Assembly (NCBI GenBank): GCA_000002445.1 | Contig: AL929603.2 | Coordinates: forward strand, 992,001 to 1,056,000 | DNA length: 64,000 bases | From: Trypanosoma brucei | Lineage: Eukaryota | Direction: 5' to 3' | Notes under the pieces: model-generated | What the model saw: the letters and a program-made list of their open reading frames with translations, nothing else | Databases searched by the model: none | Told to the model about the DNA's origin: nothing | Position numbers and translations under genes: made by a program | Shown here: piece after piece, positions 1-36,607 of the stretch | Layout: each line of letters opens with the position of its first letter | Position numbering within the stretch: position 1 is the stretch's first letter

Positions 1-3
1 ACA

Positions 4-1368
4 ATGAGGTGTGAAACAGTGTTTACTGTTGGGTTGTTTGCGATTGTTTTATCTCCTTCCTTTCAGGGGGATTTGGGGTCGTTCAAATGGAGCACAGAAT
101 TGATTGACTGGAGCAAGATTACAGAATATATTGATGAGAGTTATAAGCACCATAACGCTGGTGAGTTCGAGACACTGTGCAAGATTTACAGAATTACGCA
201 GGCAGAAGCTCCACAACCTTCCTTTGAGAATCGCGAGAAGGAAGGAGAGATTATGAATAAGTTGGAGGAAATGGTCAAGCAAACGGCGGGTGCTGGTGTT
301 AATAACAGTTCAAGCAAGTCAGGTAACAGCACGACAGCATATCAGGAGATAAGGAAACTGTTTGAGAAGGCGAAAGCGCTGAAGGAGGAAATTGAGGTGA
401 ACAGGACAAAAGCCTTAAATGCAAGTCGTTCTGCTGAAGATAATATGCTGAGAGCTGTGTATGGCGACGCTGTGGATGTTGCAAGAAATGAGAATAAAAC
501 TCTAGAGCAAGCCATGAGGGGAAACAAATCACTGCTGTTCAATAATGTCGACAATGCGGGCACGAGCTGCGGTTCTTATGGAGAGAAGTTTGTTGGAAAG
601 ACACTAATTAATGACTTTTTCTGCCTATGTGTGGGAGAGGCTATAGGTGGAACAGGGAGCGTAATAGAAAAAAAAGTGGAAAGGGGAGATGTTTTTAATA
701 CACATATATATAATGGGTTTAATTGTCCTTGTAAAGATGAGATAAGGAGGCCAAGTAATGGTAGTTGGACCATGATGGCTGAATTTTGTGCGAGTGGCGA
801 GGAGCTTTGCGAGCCTCAAAACGTCATATACAACCATACTGAAGCATGGAATGTGATCAGCAAAGCTTGTGTATACAAGAATATTGCATCGAATGTGAAA
901 ACCTTAAAGAGTGCACTAGCTCACTTTGATTCACTAGTAAATTTGGAACAGGATAAATATCAGGTGAAGGGCATTTTCGGTTATGTGAAAACTGAAAACA
1001 ACACAAATCACACCTGCACGGGTCATACTGCTGGATTCACATGTGTTAGTTACAGTTACACACTTGAAAATGGTGGGATTCCATGGTACAATCACCTTAC
1101 TAACGCTACTGAGCAACTGCAAGAAATGGATGAATATGCCAAAGAGGCTGACAGTCATCTTCATGAGTTGGAAGAATACCAACATGAGGCAGAGGAAATA
1201 TTTCTTGAGGTGAAGCTAGGAGGTGATGCGGAGCTATGGAAAAGCAACCGAGGTAAGGGTGATGGTGAAGGTGATAATACAGTGGTAGATAATGATGGAC
1301 TTACTCATTTGAATATTGCAACTGGGGGTTTTACATTATTAGTTTTATCTCTTATTTGTACGCTTTAG
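4..1368 (+). CDS. ESAG2-like GPI-anchored surface glycoprotein (copy 1), VSG-like N-terminal motif EFETLC. The start may lie upstream of the window edge.
   Basis: 455-codon ORF with a signal peptide (MRCETVFTVGLFAIVLSPSFQG), many N-x-S/T sites, about 20 Cys and a C-terminal hydrophobic GPI-type tail (GGFTLLVLSLICTL). It is the first gene of a conserved ESAG2>ESAG11>ESAG1 order and has a near-identical paralogue at 26092..27468. The family name rests on size, topology and synteny, not on an alignment. Confidence 0.6.
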   Translation: MRCETVFTVGLFAIVLSPSFQGDLGSFKWSTELIDWSKITEYIDESYKHHNAGEFETLCKIYRITQAEAPQPSFENREKEGEIMNKLEEMVKQTAGAGVNNSSSKSGNSTTAYQEIRKLFEKAKALKEEIEVNRTKALNASRSAEDNMLRAVYGDAVDVARNENKTLEQAMRGNKSLLFNNVDNAGTSCGSYGEKFVGKTLINDFFCLCVGEAIGGTGSVIEKKVERGDVFNTHIYNGFNCPCKDEIRRPSNGSWTMMAEFCASGEELCEPQNVIYNHTEAWNVISKACVYKNIASNVKTLKSALAHFDSLVNLEQDKYQVKGIFGYVKTENNTNHTCTGHTAGFTCVSYSYTLENGGIPWYNHLTNATEQLQEMDEYAKEADSHLHELEEYQHEAEEIFLEVKLGGDAELWKSNRGKGDGEGDNTVVDNDGLTHLNIATGGFTLLVLSLICTL

Positions 1369-1536: not shown

Positions 1537-1543
1537 ATAAGTA

Positions 1544-2662: not shown

Positions 2663-2740
2663 TTCAATGTTATATTTTATGCTACGGTTCTGTTATTGGT
2701 ATTGTGCGTTTGTGATACCCACTGCTTTTTTGTGTAATGG

Positions 2741-2789
2741 AGGGGATGTGTTTTTCCTCTTTTATATCTTTTGCCACATGTGATTGTAG
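2741..2789 (+). promoter_or_regulatory. Polypyrimidine tract plus AG splice acceptor upstream of the ESAG1-like gene
   Basis: tgtttttcctcttttatatcttttgcc followed by tgtAG just before the ATG at 2793. Conserved in the copy at about 28820..28868. Confidence 0.45.
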
Positions 2790-2792
2790 GTA

Positions 2793-13123: not shown

Positions 13124-15803
13124 CTAGTTTGTGATGCAGAGGCTGTGCCTTCTACGGAGTAACACTGTATATGACTGTATTTATCTGTGTCCTATTTGTC
13201 ATGCAACGCAACATGTAAGCGAAGCGGTTTCTCCTCAGTGCCTGCGATGTCAGACATGTTGCTCACTTAGTGGGGGTAGCATATATGTATATATTTGTGG
13301 TGTCATTTTCTTGCAAGACGGACGGTTTCACGTACTAAGAAAAAAGTGTGTGTGTTCGGGGTTAAATATTTCTATGCAGACAGCAGTGCCACGGTAGTTG
13401 GAGTCTCTGCTATTGAAGACTGAAAATTCAGCTTTAAGATAAGATATAGCAAAAAGAGAAAAGAGAACACTTGATCGAACTAAACAAATCACTATTGCGG
13501 AGGGCTTAGTCAGCGGTATCAATGCAAATAAATACATGTGCGTGCATACATATATGTGTATGTGAGTGAGCCGATTGCCGGCGTGCGTGGCGTAGGTAAA
13601 GGAAGGTGATCACATCACCCCCATTTTGCGAAGCGAGGAGAGCGCACAGTTCGGTTGGTTAGCGAGTAGGAGTAAAAATTGAAGGAAGGACCTTGTCATA
13701 CTTTGCATTATTTGGAAGTCATAGCACTGTTTCCCGCCCCATTCAAAAGAAAATTTGTTTACATGTTTCGTAACAGAGATAGAAACACGGTTTCCACTGT
13801 CGTCACCTCCTTCGTTTCAAACCCTATTTCATCCATTTGTTTCCTCTCCCTTTTCGATAGTTTGTGAAAGCCACAACCACCTTTTTTTGTACCTTAGTTT
13901 ACTCTCGTGTCACCACCGAGCTACCAGTTGCATGTCTGGCTAGGCATATGCCGACACATTTTTAGTGGAATCGCCGTTGACACAATTTGCCAATCAGTGT
14001 CTCAGTGCTTGGGTTATAAACGTGCATAACTCGGACACCGGACACGAGCTTGTGCTGAAAATTGTGTCCCTGTTGTCATCCAGAGGTTCAGGGAGTTTAC
14101 ATTTTGAAGAATGAGGGTCTTCGATTGACTTCCTGGGACGTATCGAATACGTCAAGCACAGTCGAATGCAGTAAAGCAGTGCCTTGTCGAGAATACATCG
14201 AGACAATGGCAGCAGACACACTACTCTACTTCATTTGGTAGTGTAGCATTATTTTTTTTATTTTTGTCCGAATACTTTCGTATCCCAACACCAGAGGCTT
14301 CTCGAGCTGTTTGCCTTGTTTTGGCTTATGGTGCTATGGTTGTGTGGCCAAGAAGTGAGGTCACAGTTCGCTAAGGGATGTGCACCAGCACGTTAACGGG
14401 GCGGGTATGGGTGCAGTTGTGTTGTATGCATACATCTGTCGGTGTGCCGAGTTATCCTATAGAGCGCAAACGCCAACCGGTGGGCCGGGAAGTAGAACAG
14501 GAGTGTTCATTTCGTTTGAGCCGGAGCGGAAGCAGTGGGTCACAGCACCCAGCTCAAAGAAGGGGAGTTAACTGAGGTGTGTGATTATTGAGAAAGGAAC
14601 TGAAATTGTTGGGAATTGAAGCATCCCGAACTTTCCCCATCCCTTTGGTCATCAGACAGCCGTAATGATTTTCCCACAATGGGCTCTGTGCAAAGTTCAT
14701 TTGCTCTAATGGCTGAGATGTGATTCTCGCCCTCGCGCGATCAGCGGGGAGGAACAGCACCGTTACATTGAGTTAGGAGCCATGTTTAGTTCAACTTTTT
14801 CTGTCACTGGGAGTTGATCAGAATGAGAGGATGTGATTTTTATTTCCCCTTAATGGTGTACATTATGTGCGACACTGGCGTGTGTCAATTTTAACAGCTA
14901 GAATCGTTGGTTTAATTTGCTGTGCGCTAATTAGAGTCGTCGTACGCTCAGGGAAAGGTGGCGCATGCTCTTCTGGGAAGGGCTGTTTCTCAACTAACCC
15001 AGATTAATTGGTTGCTTTGTTGGGTGTGTGTGTGTAATTCCTTTATGTGTTAATTCTCTAGTGAGGTATCTAGTGCTCTGCCGCTTGGTCACTGTCTCTG
15101 TACAGGTGTGGAAGTTGCCATCATCTGATGCCGACCACCCCGTTTCGATGTTAACAAAGACAGTGTTTCTTACACGCACCGGGAAAACACTATTTGATGG
15201 CGCGTTTACTTGACTAGCCCCATGCTTCTTACGGCCAGCGTATGTAACGCCTTCCAGGAATGGATGAACCGAATCGGAGGTGGCAGTGTCTTCAGCCACT
15301 TCGCAAGGGACTTAAAGGAACGACAAAGTTGTGTTGTATTGGTGGGGTTCTTCTTCCCGTATCTTCATTTGACCGTAAGTTTCCACGACTATTGAAGGGC
15401 TCTGTGTTGCGCAATTGAAAATGCGTGTTGTTATGCGATTCTGATATGCTTTTGTAGTCCCGTTTTACTGATTTTTCCTCCCCACAAAAGTGGAGGAGCA
15501 TCCCGTTTTTTTTTCTCGCCGGGGCCAGTCGCCGCTGGTGCGCTGCTGGCTTCTATGGTTGGCTGCCAGGTTCCGGAGCATTTAGTCCCTAAAGTTCCAC
15601 GGCAGCGAAGGATTGTGTCTCCCTCCTCTGTTAATCAGTGTCACCACCGGTGTGCATTTCCACGCTATTGCGCGTACGAAGACTCACTTGCTCCGTATCT
15701 CTTTCCCTTTATTTATTTAATATTGTAACCCCTTTTGGTGGAGCATTTATTTCCATATAGGGTAGCATTTACCTTCAGTGAAATAAAAAGAACAAAGACA
15801 GGG

Positions 15804-18011
15804 ATGGGTGGTGTGGTCGGCAAGATACCTGTTCTGCTTCGTGGTGGTAAGACTGTGGATGGACTTAACTTCCATGGCATGGTACCCATTGATACGGAAG
15901 AGCTTACCGAATTGTTGACTGTGTTAAACTGTCGAGGATACGATACGAAGGTGGAAGTCCATCCTTTACCTGCTGGCTTTCCCCATACGGGTGAGGTATT
16001 CAGCACATATGAACTTGTACTGAGGGGTATAGTGCTTGAACGTGGTGATTTGGAGTTCATAGGAAATTATGCATCACTTAACAAACTGCATTTTATCGAA
16101 TGTTCGGGCTCATGCGACCTGGGTATGTTGTCGGGGCATTCGTTTCTTTCAGAGTTGCGCGTGGACGTTGATGGTGAAGTGAGCCATTATAAAGCGCTGC
16201 GGGAGCTCCCTTCGTTGAGAACCCTTTGGCTGCGCAACAGTAACATGACACTCACTGATTTCTTTCATGTGGGGGAAGTAGATACATTGGAAAGCCTTAC
16301 CCTTCGAGGAGCGTTGAACTTCAAGTGTCTGGAGGCTGTAGCGAGGTTGCCGCGGTTGAGGGCGCTGGATTTGAGTGAGACATTGGTCAATGATAAATGC
16401 CTCCACGCTATAAGCGCCTGCAAAACCCTGCAGCAACTTGGCCTCAGCTCCTGCAAGCGGCTGCGAGATGTTAGCCCCCTTACTCAGATTGCCAGTTTGG
16501 AGGAGTTGAACCTTAGTCACTGTGAAAATCTTAAGGAAGTGGGTGCCCTTTACAGACTTAGCCACTTATTTAGGTTAGACCTTAGGGGTGTGCACCTCAC
16601 TTATCGTGTTGTTTACAGTCTAAGCAAGTGCACGGGACTGACTGAGCTTTACGTTTCATCCTGCGAAGGGTTATCGGGCGTGGCTTGGCTTTCCAACCTT
16701 GAATCGCTAGGGGATTTGGATGTTCAGTGGCGTAAAAACTTGAAGCATACTGGGGACGTTCTTGCCTGCTTGCCGTTGCTACGAGTGCTGGATTTGAGCG
16801 GCACATCGATTAGCAACGAATCCCTTTGGAATATTAGTGAAAGTAAGCTTCTGAGAAGGCTTGACCTCTCGTTCTGTGGCGGTGTGAAAGATATAAGCCC
16901 GATATCAGATATTGTAACACTAGAAGAGTTGAATCTTAAGGGTTGCACGAGTATTACCGAAGGAGTGGATAAACTTGGAAATTTAGTGAATCTTCATATA
17001 CTGAATATGAGTAACACCCCTCTTCAATCCGGTTTTCTCTACAATATCAGCAGCATCGAAAGTCTCGTGGAACTTGATCTTTCTTCATGCTGGGGTGTAG
17101 CATCATTGGATTCTTCAGTGCAGACAGCGGTGCGTATGCGGAAGGGTTCCTATCCATTAGCGCGTCACATCGAAGGCATAAATGCGCTTGGAAGGCTCCC
17201 GAAACTTCGATTGCTAAACATGAGTAGCACTCCCGTAACAGATGAGTGCCTTCATGGATTGCAAATGTGCAAGAGTTTGGTGTGGCTCAATCTTTCTTTA
17301 TGTGCCAACCTCACGGATGTAAGTCCCCTTTCAAGTGTCAAAACACTGGAGGAAGTAGACCTCGGTTGTTGTGGAAACTTGAAGTGGGGTGCAGGTTCCC
17401 TCCGCCGACTGCCACAGTTACGCATCCTGGATTTAAAAAATACAGTCATTACTGATCACTGCCTTGGTGATGTCACTTACGGAGGGGGCGTGGTTAGTCG
17501 AATGTTGGGACGGTGTGGGATGGCTGACCTGAGTTTTTCTCGTTGGTCCATCCGTCGTGGTGGCAATTTGGTGAGGTTGGACCTCTCGTCGTGCTGGGGG
17601 CTCACTGATATTGCCCATCTGACAAGCATAACCACACTGGAGGAGTTGAGATTTACGGGATGCAGAAACTTAAAGGATGGTGTGGATGCCCTCGGCCAAT
17701 TACCAGTTCTTCACCTGCTGGACTTGAGTGGCACTTCCATAACCGATGACTCTCTCCAAGGATTAAGTACGTGTAGAAGCCTCGTCACGCTTAATATTTC
17801 GTCGTGCGCTAACCTAACAGATGTAAGTCCTCTTTCACGGATTTCATCACTTGAGGAACTAAACCTTCAGAAAAGCAAACATATCAGGAGAGGCATCGAT
17901 GAATTAGTGAGCCTTCCGCGTTTGTACCTTGTATATTTGTGTAGAGCAGACTTTAGCCGCGGAGTCGCAGAAGAGTTAGAAAAACGCGGTATTGTAGTTA
18001 AACAAATGTAA
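15804..18011 (+). CDS. Leucine-rich repeat protein, ESAG8-related (LRRP type), lacking an obvious N-terminal RING finger
   Basis: The long ORF in the track starts at a TTG (15735). The first ATG is 15804 (MGGVVGK...), and a polyY tract plus AG at about 15700..15760 lies upstream. There are more than 15 tandem cysteine-containing LRRs of about 23-25 aa (L..LDLS.C..L.DVSPLS....LEELNL). Confidence 0.65.
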   Translation: MGGVVGKIPVLLRGGKTVDGLNFHGMVPIDTEELTELLTVLNCRGYDTKVEVHPLPAGFPHTGEVFSTYELVLRGIVLERGDLEFIGNYASLNKLHFIECSGSCDLGMLSGHSFLSELRVDVDGEVSHYKALRELPSLRTLWLRNSNMTLTDFFHVGEVDTLESLTLRGALNFKCLEAVARLPRLRALDLSETLVNDKCLHAISACKTLQQLGLSSCKRLRDVSPLTQIASLEELNLSHCENLKEVGALYRLSHLFRLDLRGVHLTYRVVYSLSKCTGLTELYVSSCEGLSGVAWLSNLESLGDLDVQWRKNLKHTGDVLACLPLLRVLDLSGTSISNESLWNISESKLLRRLDLSFCGGVKDISPISDIVTLEELNLKGCTSITEGVDKLGNLVNLHILNMSNTPLQSGFLYNISSIESLVELDLSSCWGVASLDSSVQTAVRMRKGSYPLARHIEGINALGRLPKLRLLNMSSTPVTDECLHGLQMCKSLVWLNLSLCANLTDVSPLSSVKTLEEVDLGCCGNLKWGAGSLRRLPQLRILDLKNTVITDHCLGDVTYGGGVVSRMLGRCGMADLSFSRWSIRRGGNLVRLDLSSCWGLTDIAHLTSITTLEELRFTGCRNLKDGVDALGQLPVLHLLDLSGTSITDDSLQGLSTCRSLVTLNISSCANLTDVSPLSRISSLEELNLQKSKHIRRGIDELVSLPRLYLVYLCRADFSRGVAEELEKRGIVVKQM

Positions 18012-21264: not shown

Positions 21265-22302
21265 ATGTGGAAGAAATCAGTGGAATTAATTGTGGGCGTG
21301 ACTTTAGTAATGACATATGTGTCTAGCGCGGAGCAGGTTATACTTAATACGAAGGAGTTCCAAACGTTGTGCGGATTTGTTAGGTTGACAGAACAAATAA
21401 ATGAGCTACTGGAGCGAATGAAGGGAAAGCCTGGAGTAGATGTGTTACCTCTACAAAAAAAAGTCAAAGACATATTGTTTGGAACGCGAATTGGAGATGT
21501 GGGAAAAATGAATTGGGGATATTATAGAGAACTGGATTGTGGCCAAGATAGTGGAAACCATCAAACTAAAGGGGGAGAAGCTCTCATGAAAGATCTTGTT
21601 TGCTTGTGCGAAGGAACGGACCAGCAATCGCCACCCGGGGGACTTTGTTATGAGGGAAACACCAAAAAAAATAGCCGCGGCGGATGGAATAATGCAGGAG
21701 CCCACAGAAACACATGGACCAGTTTGAAAAGTGAATGTACAAGGGAACATGGAGAAGGTCTGTTAGCCGAGAGTGAATTTCAAGAGATGAAAAAGCAACT
21801 CAAAGAGCGGCTAAAGGAGCGTAAAGATATTCGTACAAGCGCACGTGAAGGCACGTTTTATACTTATGGGGGTAACACAAGCAATGGATTGCAGACGTGC
21901 AGTGGGGCAAAATCAGACAACGACGGCATTTGTGTAATGTATCCAAAGGAATCTGATGGGGACAACACGAGTGGTATTGAATGGCTTAATGAGCTTGAAG
22001 GTCTGGTGAAAGAAGTTGAGAAAATGAACAAGGATGAAAGTGCAGGTGGAAACACAAAACCAAGTACGGACGGGCAACCAAGCATGGAAAAAAAGCCAAA
22101 GTCAAATACAAAGCCAAGCACAGGGGAGAACTCACCAGCTAAGGGGTTAGAAGGATCACAAAAAGATGGAAACCCAAATGCGCAAACAACTACCAGTACT
22201 GAGAAAGATGCCACTACGGCAAGACCACCAGAAGAACAAAAGAGTTCGTCCAAAATTATTTTACAATTTCTATGGATATTTTTATTTTGGTTGTTTGTAT
22301 AA
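21265..22302 (+). CDS. VSG-fold (ESAG2-superfamily-like) GPI-type surface protein with a Pro/Ser/Thr-rich C-terminal region
   Basis: 345 aa with a signal peptide (MWKKSVELIVGVTLVMTYVSSA), the motif KEFQTLCGFVRLT (compare EFETLC in the ESAG2-like gene and AETLC in the ESAG11-like gene, VSG N-domain-like), a KPST-type low-complexity stretch and a hydrophobic C-terminus (ILQFLWIFLFWLFV). Paralogue at 35246. Confidence 0.5.
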   Translation: MWKKSVELIVGVTLVMTYVSSAEQVILNTKEFQTLCGFVRLTEQINELLERMKGKPGVDVLPLQKKVKDILFGTRIGDVGKMNWGYYRELDCGQDSGNHQTKGGEALMKDLVCLCEGTDQQSPPGGLCYEGNTKKNSRGGWNNAGAHRNTWTSLKSECTREHGEGLLAESEFQEMKKQLKERLKERKDIRTSAREGTFYTYGGNTSNGLQTCSGAKSDNDGICVMYPKESDGDNTSGIEWLNELEGLVKEVEKMNKDESAGGNTKPSTDGQPSMEKKPKSNTKPSTGENSPAKGLEGSQKDGNPNAQTTTSTEKDATTARPPEEQKSSSKIILQFLWIFLFWLFV

Positions 22303-23394
22303 ATTGGCTCACAATCCACCATCACGTTTTTTTTTGGAAAATTCATGTCGGTAGAGGAAGTAAAAAGTAGCTACCGTTGCAGGGACCAGGAGACAGGGTG
22401 GAGGGAATGGAGGAATAATTTTTCTTTTTTACGCCCATTTAAAAAGTTTCTCAAACTGGATAATTTCAATGCTCAATAAAGAAAATAATCCGTTCACACT
22501 TATTAGTAACAACAAAATTTGGGAAGAGTAAAAGCAACAGGGAGTGAAACGTAAACAAATAGGGAATAAGCTTTATGACTTTTGAGGTTAAGCGAATACA
22601 GATTTTAATATCGTTGTTGTGGAATTATGGAATCTGGAAAGACAAAATATATTAAAAGAACCGCGTTACATGTACACAGGAAGTGAATCTTACGAGGCTT
22701 GCAATTGGGCCCATTCAAACATAAGAAACAGAAACAGTGTGACCTCTCTTTGGAAGCTTAGTTGCAGCATTTAAGAATGGAGAGCAAATAGATAGTTATG
22801 TATACAGGAAACCACTGAAACTACGGTCAAGCCCAAGCGTGTTGGTGTGGCGATGAAACCGCCTGCAAGTGGTGAAGGAAGCGCGAACAAAAGGATTCAC
22901 GAACTTCGATCAAGTCTCAATTTAAAAAAAAATTGAAAGAACTAGATGTGTGTTTTTTCATTTAATTGGTAGGAGAGTGAAGCCACCAAAAGACATATTA
23001 TCTAAGTTGATTTTTATTTGTGTAACCCTGGAGTTCGAGGTATATGGAAAGTTGGGAATCGCGCGAGGAAGCTGAGGAGCATTCAAGGGAACTATGGGTA
23101 GAAGAGAGACTTGAATACACTGACGTGCGTAAATAATGCCTAACGAAAATGAGGTGAGCGTGTACTGAAAGCTATGGAAGGGGTACTCGTGGCGTTTGAG
23201 AGGCTTCTTCATGGCATGGAATAACTGGAATGACATGTGATAAATTAATTTACATGTGTTTACTCCGATACCAAAATAAAATTATAATTGATTACCATAT
23301 AGCATGAATAGACAAATGCATGTACATTGGTCTACTTTTTGTTTATTTTTAGTGTTTTGTACCATTTGTTTGGCTCAACCCCCGGAGGAAGGAA

Positions 23395-24174
23395 ATGCTC
23401 GGGCTTACAACAATCTTATTTTCGACACTAATAGTGATTGCATCAAGCGGTGAATCGAAAGCTTCAGTGGGCACTTCGGTCGCCGAGCAGAGATGCGATG
23501 GATACTGGGACTCCTCCAGTGGGGGCGGACGGTGCCGGCCTTGGAGTACGGGAGCAGTCGATCCAAAGACTGTAAGCACGCGGCAGACTCCAGTTTCCCC
23601 AGTTCTTAAAAGCCAGAAACCAGATGTGACCGGTGACGATGCCCAAGTACACAAAATGCAGGAGGGTGCTGCATCGAGTCCAATCGTAGAGAGTGGAGCT
23701 AGTCAATCGGCTCCTGGTACTGAGGAAACCTCTAACAAAGTGACCGTGCAACTAAGTGGTGTTGCAATTGGTGGCAGGAGTGACAAGATTGAACAGCCAT
23801 CTCTCAGCTCCCGAATCTCCGAGCCGGCGGCAAACGCGGCGACTGACTACAGCGAACAGAAAGTGGGTCAAGAAGGGCAGAGATTAGGAACTGCAGAGGG
23901 ACTAGAAGGCGCGAAATACAACGGCAGAGATGGTGGGAAAGAGGGGAAAAAGGTTTCAGAGGAGCAAACACCAGGGCCTGATAGCCGGCACGCCTTGCAG
24001 ATGTCGATGCGGGGCGCAGCTTCGCCGCGAGGGCATAGCCATATGGCGGGAGTCACGACAGATGATTTGGATGCGCAGGACCCAGCACAAAACAGTGCCC
24101 ATGAGAGGAGAAGCGCGGCGCAAAAAAGATGTGCAGTAGTGGTCGCCGCAGCGTTCAGCTTCATATGCCTTTGA
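23395..24174 (+). CDS. Small secreted, GPI-signal-bearing, Gly/Ser-rich surface protein of unassigned family (paralogue at 43260)
   Basis: 259 aa with a signal peptide (MLGLTTILFSTLIVIASSG), the motif CDGYWDSS and a C-terminal hydrophobic tail (CAVVVAAAFSFICL). The 5' flank (cccccggaggaaggaaATG) and several hundred bp of both flanks are conserved with the 43260 copy. Confidence 0.45.
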   Translation: MLGLTTILFSTLIVIASSGESKASVGTSVAEQRCDGYWDSSSGGGRCRPWSTGAVDPKTVSTRQTPVSPVLKSQKPDVTGDDAQVHKMQEGAASSPIVESGASQSAPGTEETSNKVTVQLSGVAIGGRSDKIEQPSLSSRISEPAANAATDYSEQKVGQEGQRLGTAEGLEGAKYNGRDGGKEGKKVSEEQTPGPDSRHALQMSMRGAASPRGHSHMAGVTTDDLDAQDPAQNSAHERRSAAQKRCAVVVAAAFSFICL

Positions 24175-24652: not shown

Positions 24653-24862
24653 GTGGGGAATTTAGAGACCACCTTGTTAATCATATTTGATCCCCTCATC
24701 GCACCTTTTGCTGCTGGACAACCGCCTTCAGTACTTGCTGAAATGATGTCCAATATCACTTCACTTTACTTTCGTTTCAACGAAGTCCACAGGAGTTTCA
24801 CTTCGCTGCTGTTCGACACGGGTAGCATTGATAATGTGAAAAGCACTAATTCTACCATCTGA
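24653..24862 (+). pseudogene. ESAG1-like C-terminal fragment (truncated pseudogene)
   Basis: Encodes ...DPLIAPFAAGQPPSVLAEMMSNITSLYFRFNEVHRSFTSLL..., matching only the last 60 or so residues of the ESAG1-like genes. No N-terminal portion lies upstream. Confidence 0.55.
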
Positions 24863-26091
24863 CAGATACTTTCAGATATTTTCCCTCGTTCCATAATAAA
24901 AATAACTTTACGCGTGCGTGCTCTCATCCTTTTCAACTGATAATTTCTTTATCTGGAGTGTCCCTATCTTGGTTATCTTAATTGTGAGTGGTAGTGACTG
25001 TGGTTGTCGCTCCACCATTTGTGTTGTAGGGTAGTGGGGTGTGTTAATTCTTTCTGCATGTGAAGTGAGGAAGAAATGTTTGGTTTTATGCCCACAAGAG
25101 TAGTTTTGTTGCCATTTATTTTTTGGTTATGCAAAGAACCTGTGTGCAGTGAAGATAAATGAGAATTCATTGAAAGGATGAGCGGTTACGTATGTAACAT
25201 CCGTTTTTTTCTACCAGCGTATCTCTAAGGATGGTGACTGGTGGGTGTGGCAAATGATCTAAATGGAGGTAAAAACAGGGAGGGTCACTCGTTATTTTGG
25301 AACTGTTCTATTTTTTGGTGTGTTGGTGGCTAACATAATATCCCATCATGTTACCATATAATCAGGGTCTTCAGTAATGAGCATAATTGTTTGAGACGGT
25401 GTTTTGAGAATGCAACTTTTATCTTTTCTAGTGTATGGCTTAAGAAAATGGATGGCAAGCGGTTGTGCATGTTCACAAAGAGAGGAGCAAAGGCTGTTGT
25501 CAATACCTGTATGAAAGGAGGAGGATGTGCTAAATGAAGCTCAGTAGCAAAGTTGTGTGCATTGGATAAGGGTAAGACATACATGCAAATTAAGCGCGTA
25601 ATCTATTAGAGAGTAAAGGCATAAAGTAACAACTGAAAGTAATGGGGTCAGAGGAGGGTATGGAAAAACATAGCATGAATGTGCAAGTACTCATTATGGT
25701 AGTGGAAGTGTTCATCTGAAGAGTAGATGAGCTCATTGAGAAACTCAAGAAAGCGGTAGCACAACTAAGTTGGGAAAGTGTAATTACCTGGCATGGAGAG
25801 TAAGGAAGTGAATATGTTGGATGAAGAAATTAGGAGAAATGGTGTAACGAAAAGGAGAATACCGCAGTTGTGAGGAAGTCTAACGTTGATATCCAGCTTC
25901 AGGCAAGGGAACTCATGTAACTGCGTGTTTCCGACGTGTGTTACGTTGTGTTGGGTGCTGCTGTAATTGGTTTGTGTCAGGCACTTTCAAGATCCGATAT
26001 TTGCTTGTATATGTCTGTTGAGTGTGTCTGCCAATATCAGTAATGACTGTAATGATAAGTTTGTGATTCTCTCTTTTTGACTAATTGATGT

Positions 26092-27468
26092 ATGAACAGG
26101 ATCACGATGAGGTATGAAATAGTGTTTACTGTTGGGCTGTTTGCGACTGTTTTATCTCCTTCCTTTCAGGGCGATATGGTTGGGTACAAGTGGGCCACAG
26201 AATCTATAAACTGGAGTGCGATTACCAGGCTCGTCGGCGTCAACGACAAGTACCACAACGCTGGTGAGTTCGAGACACTGTGCAGGATTTACAGAATTAC
26301 GCAGGCTGAAGCTCCACAACCTTCCTTTGAGAATCGCGAAAAGGAAGGAGAGATTATGAATAAGTTGGAGGAAATGGTCAAACAGACGGCGGGCGCTGGT
26401 GTTAATAACAGTTCAAGCAAGTCAGGTAGCAGCACAACAGCATATCAGGAGATAAGGAAACTACTTGAAAAAGCGAAAAAACTGAAGGAAGAAATTGAGG
26501 CGAATAGGACAAAAGCCTTATACGCAAGTCGTTCTGCTGAAGATAATATGCTGAGAGCTGTGTATGGCGACGCTGTGGATGTTGCAAGAAATGAGAATAA
26601 AACTCTAGAGCAAGCCATGAGGGGAAACAAATCACTGCTGTTCAATAATGTCGAAAATGCGGGCACGAGCTGCGGTTCTTATGGAGACAAGCTAGTTGGA
26701 AAGACACTAATTAATGACTTTTTCTGCCTATGTGTGGGAGAGGCTAAGAAAGTACAAATCAAGAAAAGTGTAGCAAAAGATGAATATGACCCAACCTATG
26801 ACGGTGTTTATAATGGGTTTAATTGTCCCTGCAAGGATGAGATGAGGAGACCGAGAAGTGGTAGTTGGACCATGATGGCTGAATTTTGTGTAAGTGGGGA
26901 GGATAATTGTAACCCTGAAAACATAAAATACAACTATACTGAGGCATGGGATGTGATCAGCAAAGCTTGTGTATACAAGAATATTGCATCGAATGTGAAA
27001 ACCTTAAAGAGTGCACTAGCTCACTTTGATTCACTAGTAAATTTGGAACAGGATAAATATCAGGTGAGGGGTATTCTTGGGTATGCAAATGCTGAAGAAA
27101 ACACTGATCACATATGTACGGGTCATACTGCTGGATTCACATGTGTTAGTTACAATCACACACTTGAAAATGGTGGGATTCCATGGTACAATCGTCTTAC
27201 TAACGCTACTGAGCAACTGCAAGAAATGGATAAATATGCCAAGGAGGCTGACAGTCATCTTCATGAGTTGGAAGAATACCAACATGAGGCAGAGGAAATA
27301 TTTCTTGAGGTGAAGCTAGGAGGTGATGCGGAGCTATGGAAAAGTAGCCAAGGTAAGGGTGATGGTGAGGGTGATAATACAGTGGTAGATAATGATGGAC
27401 TTACTCATTTGAATATTGCAACTGGGGGTTTTACATTATTAGTTTTATCTCTTATTTGTACGCTTTAG
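26092..27468 (+). CDS. ESAG2-like GPI-anchored surface glycoprotein (copy 2). The homologous start is probably the ATG at 26107 (MRYEIVF...).
   Basis: 458 aa, near-identical to 4..1368 over most of its length including the C-terminal GPI signal. It carries discrete divergent patches (about 26167..26273 and 26734..26820). Confidence 0.6.
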   Translation: MNRITMRYEIVFTVGLFATVLSPSFQGDMVGYKWATESINWSAITRLVGVNDKYHNAGEFETLCRIYRITQAEAPQPSFENREKEGEIMNKLEEMVKQTAGAGVNNSSSKSGSSTTAYQEIRKLLEKAKKLKEEIEANRTKALYASRSAEDNMLRAVYGDAVDVARNENKTLEQAMRGNKSLLFNNVENAGTSCGSYGDKLVGKTLINDFFCLCVGEAKKVQIKKSVAKDEYDPTYDGVYNGFNCPCKDEMRRPRSGSWTMMAEFCVSGEDNCNPENIKYNYTEAWDVISKACVYKNIASNVKTLKSALAHFDSLVNLEQDKYQVRGILGYANAEENTDHICTGHTAGFTCVSYNHTLENGGIPWYNRLTNATEQLQEMDKYAKEADSHLHELEEYQHEAEEIFLEVKLGGDAELWKSSQGKGDGEGDNTVVDNDGLTHLNIATGGFTLLVLSLICTL

Positions 27469-27644
27469 TTTGCTTCTACGTTACCTATTATATTATGTTT
27501 TCTTTTGTTTTTTTCGCTTCTTTGTTGCTGCGTCTATGTGGTATAATATGCTTATGTATGTATGTTCATATGTGTGTTAATTTCTCATGAGATGTGAATG
27601 TTTTAAATTATCCCATATAAACTTGTTTTGTTTCTAGATAAGTA

Positions 27645-28739
27645 ATGAAGGTGGTATCACTTTTTCTTGCAGCGTGTCTGGTAATATTGGGTGCTGCCAG
27701 TAAGGCAGTGACGGAGCAGCCTTCCGGTAAGGCCATGACACTCAAGGGAGCTGAAACATTATGCAATCTCAGTCATGCCTTGAGGGTTGTGGGTGCTAAG
27801 ACTCAGGACAAACAAAAGAATGCGACAGAAATGGTGGATAAGTTTCGGGAGTGGAGACATCAGCATGGTGTAAAGGGGAGGACATGGAAGGCAATAGTGC
27901 AGGGTTTGGAGAAGATAGGTGTTGTTAATGAAAGTTACATGGAAGGTATAAAGAAAACATATGCGAAAATGGAAAAGATAATGAACAATACAGACAAGGC
28001 TCTGCAGGTAATGGATACTAGTTTTTTAAACATTGTAAGAGTTTCCTATCATGTTGTGAATGCATCACTGTCAATAGGACAAGTATTGAGGGATCTGGTA
28101 GTATTGTTTGAGCAAACAAAGGGAAGTGAAAATAGTTGGTGCTGTTTGGTAAAAACTGCCTCTTCAGGAAATGGATGTGGAAGTGATGGTAAACGCGAGT
28201 TGGCTAGCGCTCCAGAAGAGTGTAATATGTCTGTTACAAAGGATATGTCAGATGATGGTGTGTTGACTACGCTAAATAATTATAAAACCGATCAACCGGT
28301 TGAATTAACGGACAATAACAGCGCTAAGTGCTGGATCATGGGTACGGAAGAGGTTGCAAATGGAGGAGCTGGATCTTTTATAGTGGGAACTACTGGAGGT
28401 TTCGTTACCTATAGCCAAGGTTCTGCCGTTATCATGAAATCTAGTGACATGGTGCTCAAACTCATCAGCAATTACACTTCAATCAGAGACGGGTATGAAA
28501 GTATTACACAACAGTACCGTGATGTAGAGCCAACTCTTACTTCCTTTGCCGAACTTGAAAATAAACTAAAAAAATTGTTAACTCAGAGTCCGATGGTGCG
28601 TAGGTATTTCAAGGAGAATGGAAGGAAACGCAAGGGAACTGTCGGTGACGATGATGTTATAGATGAAGAAGGATTCACAATGAGGAAGCAACATACCCTA
28701 ATGGGTTTAATGGCTTTTGCAGCAGTTTTGGTTATGTGA
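27645..28739 (+). CDS. ESAG11-like GPI-anchored surface protein (copy 2)
   Basis: 364 aa, a paralogue of 1544..2662. It lacks the Gly-Ser repeat expansion present in copy 1. Confidence 0.55.
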   Translation: MKVVSLFLAACLVILGAASKAVTEQPSGKAMTLKGAETLCNLSHALRVVGAKTQDKQKNATEMVDKFREWRHQHGVKGRTWKAIVQGLEKIGVVNESYMEGIKKTYAKMEKIMNNTDKALQVMDTSFLNIVRVSYHVVNASLSIGQVLRDLVVLFEQTKGSENSWCCLVKTASSGNGCGSDGKRELASAPEECNMSVTKDMSDDGVLTTLNNYKTDQPVELTDNNSAKCWIMGTEEVANGGAGSFIVGTTGGFVTYSQGSAVIMKSSDMVLKLISNYTSIRDGYESITQQYRDVEPTLTSFAELENKLKKLLTQSPMVRRYFKENGRKRKGTVGDDDVIDEEGFTMRKQHTLMGLMAFAAVLVM

Positions 28740-28871
28740 TTCAATGTTATATTTTATATGCTACGGTTCTGTTATTGGTATTGTGCGTTTGTGATACCCA
28801 CTGCTTTTTTGTGTAATGGAGGACATGTGTTTTTCCTCTTTTATATCTTTCGCCACATGTGATTGTAGGTA

Positions 28872-29855
28872 ATGAAAGTTACGATAGCGGAATTGGTTGT
28901 TTTGTTATTTTCTGTAATTTGTATTGATGGGAAGGAGGAGAATGGGTGCACGTTGATAACAGATTATCACGGTGACGCACCTTTAAGTGAGTCCGTATGT
29001 TATCTCAGTTGTCTTTCAGATGCATTAAATAAATTATACGCTGATGGAGAGAACAAACTGTTTGTGAATGAGGAAGTGTATGCAAATGCATTTCGTATAT
29101 TGGATGATATGGAAGGAAGAACAGGTGAAAGTGTTAGATATTTGAGTATTATTAGCGGTGTAATGGAAGGGAAACATGATAAATTGAAAAAGCTTATATC
29201 GTATGGAAATGCAATGGGGGACCTTGTAGCTAAGGCAGGTGGATTATTTGCTGAGGTTAATGAAAGTGTGAGGGCAGTGAGGAAAGAAATACCTGGTGCC
29301 CTTATAAAAGTGAATAAATATTATACGGCTATTGCTGTGATCACAAGGACTGTGTGGGATGATGTTGAGGCATTGGAGCGTGACAGTGATCCGAACTGCC
29401 ATGGCGAAAAAATTAAAAATGTTGGTGAGTTCCAAGTTACGTGTGGCGAACATTTCTGCCCACTAAAAGAAGGTGTTAACGAAAGTACTCTTCAGAAATA
29501 TAAGGATGGATGCCTTGAAATAAATGTTCAAGATAAGTCTGGCCAAATAAGTGAATGCCTTAACTTACCAAGGAATAGTTTGTACAAAAATGGCGCAGTA
29601 AAGTATTCAAGTGACGGAACGAATTGGTATGGAAACGGTAATACTTATTTTCAACTCAAACTCCACGTTCATAGTATGCTTTCCCCTCTCACAATTCCCC
29701 TTGGTGCTGGCCAACCACCTTCTGCACCCCTAGACATGATGGCTAGTATTACTTCCCTGTACTCTCGCTTCAACGAGATACACAAAAACTTTACTTCATT
29801 GCTACTTAACACCAATTTTACTGGAATTGTGAATAGTAGTAATTCCGATTTTTAA
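28872..29855 (+). CDS. ESAG1-like membrane glycoprotein (copy 2)
   Basis: 327 aa. The N-terminal 130 or so residues are near-identical to copy 1, while the central and C-terminal regions diverge (mosaic). Confidence 0.6.
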   Translation: MKVTIAELVVLLFSVICIDGKEENGCTLITDYHGDAPLSESVCYLSCLSDALNKLYADGENKLFVNEEVYANAFRILDDMEGRTGESVRYLSIISGVMEGKHDKLKKLISYGNAMGDLVAKAGGLFAEVNESVRAVRKEIPGALIKVNKYYTAIAVITRTVWDDVEALERDSDPNCHGEKIKNVGEFQVTCGEHFCPLKEGVNESTLQKYKDGCLEINVQDKSGQISECLNLPRNSLYKNGAVKYSSDGTNWYGNGNTYFQLKLHVHSMLSPLTIPLGAGQPPSAPLDMMASITSLYSRFNEIHKNFTSLLLNTNFTGIVNSSNSDF

Positions 29856-35245: not shown

Positions 35246-36607
35246 ATGTGGAAGTTTAAGGTGTTGGTGGCGGCTGCGGTAGTTATTATAGCAGCACAAA
35301 TTAATTCAGTGAAAATAGTTAACCAAGAGGAGTTTGAAATACTGTGTGGTTTTGTGCGTTTAACACTTGCACCAGCACCACTAATACAATTGTCTCAGAG
35401 GATAAAAAATGAAGCTGTGGGTGCGGCGGTGGATGCAATTTATTCTGAGCCCAATCAGGAACATCTGTGGAAAAAGCTATCACCAAATTGTGAAGCGCAC
35501 CAAATAAGTGACAGGGAAAGCGTGTGCGATGCCTATGCAAGGTTCAAACATGAGGCGGAAGAGCGATTGAAAACGTCTAGACTCACAGAACCAGAACTGA
35601 CGGACTATTCACCTGATGTTCTCGATCATCTAGAGAAAGCGTTCAAACTCTATCAAGCGAGTGAGCTTGAGGGTAAACAAACTAGTATCGTAACTTTGCA
35701 AGAGGGGATAAACTCAATTATGTATGGAGAGAATGACAGTGGTGGCAATTCCCTGTGGGGAGACCACTTTCGCAACGAAGATTGCGGAACTGTGCTGGGG
35801 CAACGTCCAAAATATGCTGGTGGCGCGCTAGTTACGGACCTTTTGTGCTTATGTGCGCAGCACGTGAATGGAAGTGACACCAAGCATCTGTGTTGCGAAG
35901 GCTGCAGCTGGAGAAGTAATACTACTGTGTGGAGCGAGGAAGGCGGTCTTAAACTACAGTGGGAGATACTCAGGGAGAAATGTATCGGGTACAACATGGA
36001 TCTCGCAAATCCAAAAGACAGACTGAAGAGACTACGTGAAGAAATGGAGTGCAGAACCGTGCCAAGAGGCATCGGTAGCCGTAAAGGATTGTTTGTTTAC
36101 ACATATGGTGAGCTGGAAAAGCGGGAACTGGTCTCTTGCGGCGGGGAAGACCGACAGGATTCTGGAGCGTGTGTCCTCTATGAATGGGGAGGAACCCAAA
36201 TCCAAACCGCAAGAATACCTTGGATGCAGCGACTCGAGAAACTTGTCGACATGTTGCCAAATGTTTCGGAGGAATCAGACAGAATGGAAAAAAGAAGGAG
36301 ACAAATAGAGAACATCGTGTATCGAGTAAACGAAACTTCAAAAAAACAGCCCAAATTAGAGAAGAAAGAGGCGTTATCACAACAAGATACACCACACCCA
36401 CCTCTCGGAGATGTACTCCAAACATTTACTGACAACCCCAACACTGAGGGCGAAGCTAGGGAAAAGCAACAAGTAAAGAATGATTCTTCAGACAAATCTG
36501 TTGAGATTAAGCCCGCTGAGGGGCGAACCCCAGGAATCGGTATCCGTCCACTAAAAAGTGCGAGTAAAATTGGTACACCCCTGACGATGTTTTTATTGTT
36601 ATTATGA
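35246..36607 (+). CDS. VSG-fold (ESAG2-superfamily-like) GPI-type surface protein, a paralogue of 21265..22302
   Basis: 453 aa with a signal peptide (MWKFKVLVAAAVVIIAAQ), the motif EEFEILCGFVRLT, Cys-rich, and a C-terminal hydrophobic tail (IGTPLTMFLLLL). Confidence 0.5.
   Translation: MWKFKVLVAAAVVIIAAQINSVKIVNQEEFEILCGFVRLTLAPAPLIQLSQRIKNEAVGAAVDAIYSEPNQEHLWKKLSPNCEAHQISDRESVCDAYARFKHEAEERLKTSRLTEPELTDYSPDVLDHLEKAFKLYQASELEGKQTSIVTLQEGINSIMYGENDSGGNSLWGDHFRNEDCGTVLGQRPKYAGGALVTDLLCLCAQHVNGSDTKHLCCEGCSWRSNTTVWSEEGGLKLQWEILREKCIGYNMDLANPKDRLKRLREEMECRTVPRGIGSRKGLFVYTYGELEKRELVSCGGEDRQDSGACVLYEWGGTQIQTARIPWMQRLEKLVDMLPNVSEESDRMEKRRRQIENIVYRVNETSKKQPKLEKKEALSQQDTPHPPLGDVLQTFTDNPNTEGEAREKQQVKNDSSDKSVEIKPAEGRTPGIGIRPLKSASKIGTPLTMFLLLL

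What the first reader, a model, noticed from the sequence alone, without database searches (positions are those of the whole stretch)
21265..22302. Unassigned VSG-fold surface protein pair sharing the EFxxLCGFVRLT motif with the ESAG2-like genes
The genes at 21265 (345 aa) and 35246 (453 aa) both begin MWK…, carry an N-terminal motif (KEFQTLCGFVRLT / EEFEILCGFVRLT) echoing the ESAG2-like EFETLCKIYRIT and the ESAG11-like AETLCNLSHAL, and end in GPI-type tails. This suggests that all four gene types in the array belong to one VSG-derived superfamily. The 345-aa member carries a C-terminal K-P-S-T low-complexity region that may be an O-glycosylated stalk.
Basis: partly seen in the sequence, partly recalled or inferred. 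Interest (0 to 1): 0.5.

Follow-up and report, generated by a model that had tools for sequence, protein, structure and literature searches.

The report
Known VSG-related (VR) surface protein genes

Summary
Both ORFs are real and intact, and the shared N-terminal motif is far above chance. It occurs 4 times in the six-frame translation, in the two VR and two ESAG2 genes, against 0.01 expected.

They are not unassigned. [quoted passage not shown]

They lack what makes a VSG variant:
- no Cys-rich C-terminal domain,
- no upstream 70-bp repeat, although two such repeats lie in front of the minus-strand VSG array in the same window,
- no canonical VSG GPI signal.

The 345-aa gene belongs to a ~340-aa subfamily with a short N-terminal domain. 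That architecture lines up end to end with T. congolense VSGs.

ESAG2 is a true b-VSG relative. ESAG11 shares only the broad three-helix-bundle fold, closest to TfR, HpHbR and ISG65. ESAG1 shows no link. The O-glycosylated stalk idea is untested.

Published surface proteomics detected VR proteins on bloodstream forms. Their function is unknown.

The parts
21265..22302 (+). VR gene, 345 aa, short-form VSG-related protein (CAJ16712.1 / XP_001219197.1; inferred locus tag Tb927.1.5060)
21265..21330 (+). Predicted signal peptide, residues 1-22 (MWKKSVELIVGVTLVMTYVSSA)
   Evidence: Hydrophobic N-terminus, mean KD 1.84. The MW[KR] start is shared by most aligned VRs and two of the three T. congolense VSGs. 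The cleavage position is my inference.
21340..21390 (+). N-terminal b-VSG motif, residues 26-42 (ILNTKEFQTLCGFVRLT) with the first conserved Cys (C36)
   Evidence: N28, E31, C36 and F38 are invariant in 26 sequences. The motif occurs 4 times in the window against 0.01 expected. It aligns to NAESYAVLCTLVQLT of VSG1954.
21331..22044 (+). Short b-type VSG N-terminal domain, residues 23-260: 8 conserved Cys and N-glycosylation sequons at N204 and N234
22045..22221 (+). Cys-free T/K/P/S-rich low-complexity linker, residues 261-319, in place of a VSG C-terminal domain
   Evidence: Composition. Block-mean pLDDT 31-37. No Pfam C-terminal-domain hit.
22222..22245 (+). RPPEEQKS block, residues 320-327, just before the hydrophobic tail; the likely GPI attachment site lies in the Ser run at 326-328
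   Evidence: 95% mean pairwise identity across 23 short VRs, against about 50% elsewhere. R-P-[PL] is shared with other VR subfamilies. The attachment site is inferred.
22246..22302 (+). Hydrophobic C-terminal GPI-signal-like tail (SKIILQFLWIFLFWLFV) plus the stop codon
   Evidence: Mean KD 2.59 over the last 15 residues. It differs from the canonical VSG signals SNSFVINK... and SSILVNK....
35246..36607 (+). VR gene, 453 aa, long-form VSG-related protein (CAJ16723.1 / XP_001219207.1; inferred Tb927.1.5170)
   Evidence: ORF. Annotation. Pfam VSG_B E 9.2e-57 covering profile positions 1-352 of 352. LC-to-CxC spacing 167 aa. No Cys after residue 309.
35315..35365 (+). N-terminal b-VSG motif of the 453-aa protein, residues 24-40 (IVNQEEFEILCGFVRLT)
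4..1368 (+). Comparator: ESAG2 copy (454 aa) carrying the same motif (NAGEFETLCKIYRIT)
   Evidence: Pfam VSG_B 1.1e-27. Motif.
26092..27468 (+). Comparator: ESAG2 copy (458 aa), motif NAGEFETLCRIYRIT
   Evidence: Pfam VSG_B 5e-27. Annotation. hhalign against the VR profile gives E 2.6e-4 over the C-terminal part only.
27645..28739 (+). Comparator: ESAG11 (364 aa). It shares a three-helix-bundle fold class but has no sequence link to the VRs.

Best explanation
The window is part of Trypanosoma brucei brucei TREU927 chromosome 1. The two genes are members of the known VSG-related (VR) gene class, labelled Fam09 in the published surface-proteome table.

Shown:
- Each encodes a secretory protein made of a b-type VSG N-terminal domain, then a Cys-free disordered linker, then a hydrophobic GPI-signal-like tail.
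- They lack the features that let a VSG take part in antigenic variation: the Cys-rich C-terminal domain, an upstream 70-bp repeat, the 3' 16-mer and the canonical VSG GPI signal.
- The 345-aa gene belongs to a ~340-aa subfamily. Its domain is about 90 residues shorter between the first Cys and the CxC motif, an architecture colinear with T. congolense VSGs. The 453-aa gene has the full-length T. brucei b-VSG spacing.

Inferred:
- The signal peptide is cleaved near residue 22.
- The domain folds into a disulfide-bonded helical bundle, with four disulfides suggested by the 8 conserved Cys.
- It is N-glycosylated at N204 and N234.
- The tail is exchanged for a GPI anchor at the Ser run.
- The protein sits at low abundance as an invariant molecule among the VSG coat of bloodstream forms. 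Published data support this for the family: transcripts enriched in bloodstream forms and surface-proteome detection.

Speculative: by analogy with other repurposed VSG-fold proteins (TfR, SRA, TgsGP, HpHbR, ISG65), it binds a host or parasite ligand rather than acting as a variant antigen.
For: Identity:
- 100% matches to CAJ16712.1 and CAJ16723.1, both 'VSG-related, putative', on the 1,064,672-bp contig.
- The nearest relatives in a scan of 1.84 billion proteins are other annotated T. brucei VRs.

Domain and fold:
- Pfam VSG_B E 6.5e-28 and 9.2e-57.
- PDB profile hits to VSG1954 (3.7e-10), VSG615 (2.1e-6) and VSG11 (3.2e-3).
- Foldseek: the top 12 hits are all class-B VSGs.

Not a canonical VSG:
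- No C-terminal-domain Pfam hit, and no Cys after residue 223 (345 aa) or 309 (453 aa).
- No tandem repeats in the + strand gene island.
- 70-bp-repeat-like elements occur only at 57.9 and 61.3 kb on the minus strand, by the A-type VSG (pseudo)genes.
- No 16-mer near either gene.
- The C-terminal tails are unlike canonical VSG signals.

Short architecture:
- 23 paralogues of 329-367 aa share the same gap.
- LC-to-CxC spacing is 76-80 aa in short VRs, 78-90 in T. congolense VSGs and 160-190 in canonical b-VSGs.
- T. congolense VSGs align end to end with the short form.

Expression and localisation (literature):
- Tb927.1.5060 and Tb927.1.5170 are 2.5-fold and 7-fold higher in cultured bloodstream forms than in procyclics (PMC2771046).
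- VR proteins are enriched in the bloodstream-form surface proteome (PMC4587319).
- In that paper's supplement, Tb927.5.130 has the highest enrichment shown. Short-family members Tb427VSG-1600 and Tb427VSG-1637 are strongly enriched. Tb927.1.5170 is linked to a weakly detected entry with 2 peptides.
- VRs are described as chromosome-internal and lacking 70-bp repeats (PMC2771046; PMC2567434).
Against: - No function has been shown for any VR. Reviews still list them as uncharacterised (PMC10311239).
- Proteomic support for these two particular genes is thin. Tb927.1.5170 has 4 PSMs, and Tb927.1.5060 was not found in the supplement.
- GPI anchoring, glycosylation and disulfides are predicted, not shown.
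- The AF2 model is only moderate (mean pLDDT 60.4, pTM 0.60), although the core is confident.
- The locus-tag assignment rests on accession-number spacing and is my inference.
- The 70-bp repeat core and the 16-mer were recalled from memory. The 70-bp pattern did find two convincing positive controls in the window.
Confidence: 0.88

Rival explanations
1. They are silent archive VSGs (atypical VSGs) that serve as donors for gene conversion or mosaic formation in antigenic variation.
For: They carry a genuine VSG_B domain. Several strain orthologues are deposited simply as 'variant surface glycoprotein' in VSGnome collections. The genes lie only 20-35 kb from a minus-strand VSG array.
Against: There is no 70-bp repeat upstream, while the array VSGs in the same window have one. 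There is no VSG C-terminal domain, canonical GPI signal or 16-mer. Orthologues of matching length (344-345 and 453-464 aa) and 80-91% identity exist in other T. brucei strains and T. b. equiperdum. The literature describes VRs as not subject to monoallelic transcription (PMC6988115).
Confidence: 0.04
2. The 345-aa form arose by a T. brucei-specific internal deletion of a full-length b-VSG domain, as SRA did from an a-type VSG. On this view it is not an old, T. congolense-like short architecture.
For: Against the 453-aa paralogue and VSG1954 the gap is one clean block of about 90-100 residues directly after the N-terminal motif. Intermediate spacings of 114-116 and 132 aa exist in other VRs and relatives, so the segment changes length readily.
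Against: T. congolense VSGs of 341-374 aa have the same short spacing (78-90 aa). They align colinearly with the short VR profile from the signal peptide to the tail. Jackson et al. 2013 state that VRs are similar in structure to canonical T. congolense VSG (PMC3605285). No phylogeny was made here, so the question stays open.
Confidence: 0.25
3. One reading: a previously unassigned family, with all gene types of the array (VR, ESAG2, ESAG11, ESAG1) descended from VSG.
For: VR and ESAG2 both match VSG_B. The ESAG11 model is a three-helix bundle, and its 17 best PDB matches are trypanosome surface bundles including A-type VSGs. There is a sub-threshold Pfam A-type VSG hit at ESAG11 residues 12-67 (E 1.5e-4, 21.6 bits against a 22.1 cut-off).
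Against: The genes are annotated. ESAG11 has no profile-level similarity to the VRs (probability 0.4%). Its closest folds are TfR, HpHbR and ISG65 rather than b-VSG, and the literature derives it from ISG-like genes. ESAG1 has no detectable link and is reported to have no homology outside T. brucei. ESAG9, also in the array, is reported as MASP-related.
Confidence: 0.08
4. They are decaying, non-functional relics that happen to keep open reading frames.
For: No function is known. Proteomic signal for these two loci is low or absent. Some family members in other strains are truncated or have altered C-termini, for example P0005 (308 aa), P0019 (250 aa), P0016 and P0026.
Against: The ORFs are intact, with all 8 Cys, the signal peptide and the tail conserved across 23 paralogues. 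The RPPEEQKS block is 95% conserved. Transcripts are enriched in bloodstream forms. Close paralogues are abundant in the surface proteome.
Confidence: 0.05

Closest known systems
VSG-related (VR) genes of T. brucei (cited to Marcello & Barry 2007; labelled Fam09 in the Gadelha 2015 surface-proteome table)
   Same: This is the family itself. The sequences are identical to annotated VR proteins. They have a b-type domain, no 70-bp repeats, a location outside expression sites, higher mRNA in bloodstream forms, and family members on the surface.
   Different: Nothing at the family level. Within the class, the two genes belong to different subfamilies (short at about 340 aa, long at 453 aa) that share only 27% identity and no detectable DNA similarity.
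Canonical T. brucei class-B VSGs (mVSG1954 8b3w, VSG11 8ok4/8onh, VSG3 6elc, VSG615 8ok8)
   Same: They share the N-terminal domain family and fold, the N-x2-E-F-x2-LC start, the CxC motif and the later Cys pattern.
   Different: The VRs have no Cys-rich C-terminal domain, a different GPI-signal sequence, no 70-bp repeat and no 16-mer. The 345-aa form has 77 residues between the LC and CxC motifs instead of 160-190.
T. congolense IL3000 VSGs (b-type, 341-374 aa; P0135, P0175, P0132)
   Same: They have the same overall architecture as the 345-aa gene: a short domain (spacing 78-90 aa), a Cys-free low-complexity C-terminal segment and a hydrophobic tail. Two of the three also start MWR.
   Different: Identity is only 18-21%. 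They are the variant antigens of their species. They lack the R-P-[PL] signature before the tail.
ESAG2 (labelled Fam13)
   Same: It has a b-VSG-derived domain with the same N-terminal motif and neighbours the VRs in the same array. It is reported to be invariant and located in the flagellar pocket (PMC6120623).
   Different: It is a separate family. Its spacing is 148 aa, and profile similarity to the VRs is confined to about 55 C-terminal residues (E 2.6e-4, probability 42%). It is a regular expression-site gene.
Fam1 (Tb927.6.1310; 347 aa; b-VSG-derived; flagellar pocket)
   Same: It has a similar size and description: signal peptide, b-VSG-like domain without the VSG C-terminal domain, and a GPI signal (PMC3605285).
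   Different: Jackson et al. treat it as a separate family from the VRs. No chromosome-6 protein appeared among the 27 close homologues. I did not compare sequences directly.
SRA and TgsGP (VSG-derived human-serum resistance proteins)
   Same: They are precedents for VSG-fold proteins that lost their variant role and gained a new function. TgsGP is reported to derive from a b-type VSG (PMC6120623).
   Different: No sequence comparison was made here. There is no evidence that these VRs act in serum resistance, and T. b. brucei is serum-sensitive.

Membership tests
b-type VSG N-terminal domain (Pfam PF13206 VSG_B) | Profile match above Pfam's gathering score | tested here: met
   98.4 bits (345 aa; the best stretch covers profile positions 138-342 and there is a second matched stretch) and 193.3 bits (453 aa; profile 1-352 of 352), against a cut-off of 25.
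b-type VSG N-terminal domain (Pfam PF13206 VSG_B) | Class-B VSG three-dimensional fold | tested here: met
b-type VSG N-terminal domain (Pfam PF13206 VSG_B) | Conserved N-terminal N-x2-E-[FY]-x2-LC motif and later Cys pattern (CxC and others) | tested here: met
   Invariant N28, C36, C92, C113, C115, C128, C158, C212 and C223. The motif is present in canonical b-VSG representatives.
Canonical (antigenically variant) T. brucei VSG | Cys-rich C-terminal domain | tested here: not met
   No C-terminal-domain family was reported at E up to 1. There are no Cys after residue 223 (345 aa) or 309 (453 aa). The segment is predicted to be disordered.
Canonical (antigenically variant) T. brucei VSG | 70-bp repeat(s) upstream of the gene | tested here: not met
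   Tandem Repeats Finder reported nothing in the + strand gene island. Searches with the repeat core hit only 57881-57914 and 61263-61278 on the minus strand, by the A-type VSG ORFs, plus one chance-level site at 5692. The pattern was recalled from memory; the two positive controls support it.
Canonical (antigenically variant) T. brucei VSG | Conserved 16-mer (TGATATATTTTAACAC) in the 3' UTR | tested here: not met
   The only match with up to 2 mismatches is at 61484-61499 on the minus strand, in the VSG array. The motif was recalled from memory.
Canonical (antigenically variant) T. brucei VSG | Canonical GPI signal peptides (…SNSFVINKAPLLLAFLLF or …SSILVNKQFALSVVSAAFAALLF) | tested here: not met
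   The VR tails are …RPPEEQKSSSKIILQFLWIFLFWLFV and …IRPLKSASKIGTPLTMFLLLL. The canonical signals are seen in long b-VSG representatives from the same search.
VSG-related (VR) genes / Fam09 | Annotated or classified as VR in the reference genome | tested here: met
   Exact-sequence look-up gives CAJ16712.1 and CAJ16723.1, 'VSG-related, putative', TREU927. Chromosome 1 VR locus tags Tb927.1.5060 and Tb927.1.5170 are listed in PMC2771046. Tb927.1.5170 is labelled Fam09.
VSG-related (VR) genes / Fam09 | Located outside expression sites and outside the VSG arrays | tested here: met
   Both genes lie in a + strand island of ESAG2, ESAG11, ESAG1, ESAG9 and LRR-protein genes. An ingi-type retroelement separates this island from the minus-strand VSG array that starts near 56-58 kb. 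Whether the island counts as core or subtelomeric was not determined.
GPI-anchored surface protein | N-terminal signal peptide, plus a C-terminal hydrophobic signal preceded by small residues at the attachment site | tested here: inconclusive
   Both sequence features are present. The published table gives a signal-peptide probability of 0.99 and a GPI score of 0.996 for the entry linked to Tb927.1.5170. No dedicated predictor was run here and there is no biochemical evidence.
Fam1 (Tb927.6.1310-type VSG-like proteins) | Sequence membership in the chromosome 6 tandem array family | not tested
   No Fam1 sequence was available. The literature treats Fam1 and the VRs as separate.
Trypanosome three-helix-bundle surface protein fold class (for the ESAG11 comparator) | Three long antiparallel helices, with structural matches to TfR, HpHbR, ISG65, GARP or VSG | tested here: met
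   The AF2 model has helices 33-91, 96-157 and 267-312. The Foldseek top 17 are all such proteins, led by 6soy at 3.3e-4, 4x0j at 5.4e-4 and 7pi6 at 7.6e-4. There is no sequence-level link to the VRs.

The most novel reading that the evidence does not exclude
The ~340-aa VRs may be survivors of an ancestral short b-VSG architecture that T. congolense still uses as its coat. On this reading T. brucei keeps them as invariant surface molecules shorter than the VSG layer. Two details would then matter. First, the R-P-[PL] block before the GPI signal is 95% conserved in the short family and absent from the canonical VSG and T. congolense VSG tails examined; it could be a VR-specific processing or sorting signal. 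Second, a VR gene often lies beside an ESAG9 gene: here, on chromosomes 5 and 9 judging by locus-tag order, and in BES11 of Lister 427. That could reflect a co-inherited two-gene unit. I did not find either point stated in the papers I could read, but I could not read Marcello & Barry 2007 or Jackson 2012.
Probability: 0.15. Interest if true: 0.35.

Novelty: already known. Interest (0 to 1): 0.1.

Why it matters
This matters little as a discovery. The genes, their VSG relationship and their class name have been in the reference annotation and the literature for many years.

The useful result is a correction. The finding can be closed as 'VR genes, Fam09'. The Fam1/ESAG2 label in the proposed check is wrong. 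The ESAG11 resemblance is at the level of fold class only. ESAG1 is not shown to belong.

VRs remain functionally uncharacterised even though some are among the most enriched proteins in the bloodstream-form surface proteome. The family as a whole is therefore still worth experimental work, but nothing in this window adds a new handle on that question beyond the small details listed under the novel case.

Tried and rejected
Look-ups that returned nothing or were unavailable:
- The look-up of encoding contigs for the 345-aa protein had nothing on record.
- Marcello & Barry 2007 and Jackson et al. 2012 are not held in the paper library. Statements about them are second-hand, from papers that cite them.

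Searches with no useful hit:
- ESAG11 against PDB sequences, as a single sequence and as a 10-sequence profile, gave nothing. Only the predicted fold was informative.
- ESAG1 as a 4-sequence profile, against the VR profile, the ESAG11 profile and the PDB, gave nothing significant.
- Tandem Repeats Finder reported only one short 18-bp array, at 58042-58087. It cannot see single 70-bp repeats, so I added pattern searches.

Ideas rejected:
- That the ~90-aa gap in the 345-aa protein is a frameshift or annotation artefact. The ORF is continuous, and 23 paralogues share the gap.
- That the two VR genes are a recent duplicate pair. They share no DNA similarity at E below 1e-10 and only 27% protein identity.
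Full report
**Observation.** The ORFs at 21265-22302 (345 aa) and 35246-36607 (453 aa) exist on the + strand, are uninterrupted and both begin MWK. The ESAG2 copy at 4-1368 reads EFETLCKIYRIT, and the copy at 26092-27468 reads EFETLCRIYRIT. The pattern N-x2-E-[FY]-x2-L-C occurs exactly four times in the six-frame translation of the 64-kb window, at the two genes of the finding and the two ESAG2 genes. The mean over 200 shuffles is 0.01. The two proteins are homologous throughout: 27% identity, BLASTP E 5e-21, plus a separate 12/17 match at the N-terminus. Both end in hydrophobic tails. The 345-aa protein has a T/K/P/S-rich segment at residues 261-327, with NTKPST occurring twice.

**Identity.** The 345-aa protein is 100% identical to CAJ16712.1 / XP_001219197.1, and the 453-aa protein to CAJ16723.1 / XP_001219207.1. 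[quoted passage not shown] The neighbours are annotated ESAG2, ESAG11 and ESAG1. The two small ORFs at 23395-24174 and 43260-44153 are annotated ESAG9. Jensen et al. 2009 list exactly two VSG-related genes on chromosome 1, Tb927.1.5060 and Tb927.1.5170, and one ESAG9, Tb927.1.5220. The spacing of the CAJ accession numbers (16712, 16723, 16728) fits 5060, 5170 and 5220. I therefore infer that the 345-aa gene is Tb927.1.5060 and the 453-aa gene is Tb927.1.5170. The genes are not 'unassigned'.

**Why they are VRs and not VSGs.**
- Neither protein has a VSG C-terminal domain. No such Pfam hit appears, and there are no cysteines after residue 223 (345 aa) or 309 (453 aa).
- Their tails (…RPPEEQKSSSKIILQFLWIFLFWLFV and …IRPLKSASKIGTPLTMFLLLL) differ from the canonical VSG GPI signals (…SNSFVINKAPLLLAFLLF and …SSILVNKQFALSVVSAAFAALLF). 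Those signals appear in long b-VSG representatives from the same search.
- There are no tandem repeats in the gene island.
- A search with the core of the 70-bp repeat, recalled from memory, found two nearly identical single copies on the minus strand at 57.88 and 61.26 kb (…ATGGTTATAATAATAATGATAG.A..GTGTTGTGAGTGTGTATATAC…). They lie by ORFs that match the A-type VSG Pfam model. No copy lies upstream of either VR gene.
- The VSG 3' 16-mer has no match near them.

This agrees with the published description of VR genes: VSG-like, lacking 70-bp repeats and located outside expression sites (PMC2771046; PMC2567434). Thirty-six VRs are reported in strain 927 (PMC2854126).

**The short form.** An alignment of 23 paralogues of 329-367 aa (44-89% identical to the 345-aa protein) shows that all lack the same block of about 90 residues directly after the N-terminal motif. 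Eight cysteines are invariant. I measured the distance from the motif's cysteine to the CxC motif in every retrieved relative:
- 76-80 residues in short VRs, including Tb09.v1.0290 and Tb09.v1.0300 and chromosome 3 VRs;
- 78-90 in T. congolense IL3000 VSGs;
- 114-116 in intermediate VRs;
- 148 in ESAG2;
- 160-190 in the 453-aa VR and canonical b-VSGs.

T. congolense VSGs of 341-374 aa align with the short profile from signal peptide to tail. Two of the three begin MWR. They also have a Cys-free low-complexity C-terminal segment. [quoted passage not shown] It makes an old short architecture somewhat more likely than an SRA-like deletion, but I made no phylogeny.

**Family size.** A full HMMER scan of 1.84 billion representatives found 254 relatives at E up to 1e-3 and only 11 at E up to 1e-30. 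All those I named were Trypanosoma proteins, and the closest were other VRs.

**C-terminal region.** The linker is about as conserved as the domain (48% against 52% mean pairwise identity). The eight residues RPPEEQKS just before the tail are 95% identical across the short family. A related R-P-[PL] signature precedes the tail in other VR subfamilies, but not in canonical VSGs or T. congolense VSGs. The only O-glycosylation in the material I saw is on the VSG3 N-terminal domain (PDB 6elc title). To my knowledge no mucin-type stalk has been described in T. brucei.

**The 'one superfamily' claim.**
- ESAG2 is a real b-VSG relative: VSG_B at 5e-27 and 1e-27. This is consistent with the literature.
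- ESAG11 is different. Its 10-sequence profile shows no similarity to the VR profile (hhalign probability 0.4%, with the motifs not aligned) and none to PDB sequences. Its Pfam hits to the A-type VSG and ISG65-75 models are below threshold.
- The ESAG11 AlphaFold2 model nevertheless has three long helices (33-91, 96-157, 267-312). Its best 17 PDB matches are all trypanosome three-helix-bundle surface proteins: TfR, HpHbR, ISG65, the factor H receptor, GARP and A-type VSGs. It therefore shares the broad fold class, in line with the published ISG link, but 'VSG-derived' is not shown.
- ESAG1 has its own Pfam family and no detectable link to VR, ESAG11 or any solved structure.
In the Gadelha 2015 table VRs are Fam09 and ESAG2 is Fam13. 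Fam1 is a separate chromosome 6 family.

**Function.** No VR has a known function (PMC10311239; PMC6988115). The following is known:
- Tb927.1.5060 and Tb927.1.5170 mRNAs are 2.5-fold and 7-fold higher in cultured bloodstream forms than in procyclics.
- VR proteins are enriched in the bloodstream-form surface proteome.
- In that paper's supplement the VR Tb927.5.130 has the highest enrichment shown (17,628).
- The short-family members Tb427VSG-1600 (123 PSMs, enrichment 2,725) and Tb427VSG-1637 (36 PSMs, enrichment 1,413) are well supported.
- An entry linked to Tb927.1.5170 is weakly detected: 4 PSMs, 2 peptides, enrichment 23.8, GPI score 0.996.

My best account is a GPI-anchored, N-glycosylated, invariant low-abundance surface protein of bloodstream forms. 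A ligand-binding role is guessed only by analogy with other repurposed VSG-fold proteins.

**Context.** The ESAG2-ESAG11-ESAG1 triplet is duplicated (1-3771 against 26104-29859, 87% identity). The two VR genes share no DNA similarity. An ingi-type retroelement at 50146-54228 separates the + strand island from the minus-strand VSG array.

**Verdict.** The feature is already known and of low interest.

Noticed in passing
window 23395-24174 (+) and 43260-44153 (+): Both ORFs are annotated ESAG9 (259 and 297 aa, 29% identical). The first lies 1.1 kb downstream of the 345-aa VR. Their 5' flanks and starts are 70% identical (22926-23519 against 42800-43384). Locus-tag order in Jensen 2009 suggests the same VR-next-to-ESAG9 arrangement on chromosome 5 (Tb927.5.110/.120/.130) and chromosome 9. 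BES11 of Lister 427 carries a VR plus ESAG9 in place of ESAG2-11-1.
   Followed up: partly
window 22222-22245 (residues 320-327 of the 345-aa protein): RPPEEQKS, just before the hydrophobic tail, is the most conserved block of the short VR family: 95% pairwise identity against about 50% elsewhere. An R-P-[PL] signature in the same position occurs in other VR subfamilies, but not in the canonical VSG or T. congolense VSG tails examined.
   Followed up: partly
window 57801-58103 and 61182-61495 (minus strand): Two 68%-identical segments each contain a single 70-bp-repeat-like element (cores at 57881-57914 and 61263-61278). They lie by ORFs matching the A-type VSG Pfam model (58169-59584 and 61957-62256, minus strand). 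This looks like the start of a minus-strand VSG array, probably partly pseudogenes.
   Followed up: partly
window 50146-54228 (+): Two long ORFs carry endonuclease, reverse transcriptase and RNase H domains. This is an ingi-type non-LTR retroelement sitting between the ESAG/VR island and the VSG array, where GC skew changes sign.
   Followed up: no
window 1-3771 vs 26104-29859: The ESAG2-ESAG11-ESAG1 triplet is a 3.8-kb segmental duplication at 87% identity. There are two further full ESAG1 copies at 40145-41116 and 47808-48794 (about 72% DNA identity) and an ESAG1 3' remnant at 24662-24883.
   Followed up: partly
window 27645-28739 (+) and 1544-2662 (+): The ESAG11 AlphaFold2 model (pLDDT 62) is a three-helix bundle. 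Its best PDB matches are the T. brucei transferrin receptor, the haptoglobin-haemoglobin receptor and ISG65, although no sequence search finds these.
   Followed up: yes
window 28872-29855 (+) and the other ESAG1 copies: ESAG1 has an N-terminal SESVCYLSCLSDAL stretch that loosely recalls the helix-start motifs of the neighbouring genes. Profile comparisons with VR, ESAG11 and the PDB found nothing. Its fold was not predicted.
   Followed up: partly
window 15735-18011 (+): A 758-aa leucine-rich-repeat protein (many LRR Pfam hits), possibly an LRRP or ESAG8-like gene, lies upstream of the VR gene in the same strand block.
   Followed up: no
window 12308-13123 (+): A 271-aa ORF is annotated 'hypothetical protein, conserved' in TREU927. 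It has an orthologue in T. b. equiperdum and no Pfam hit.
   Followed up: no
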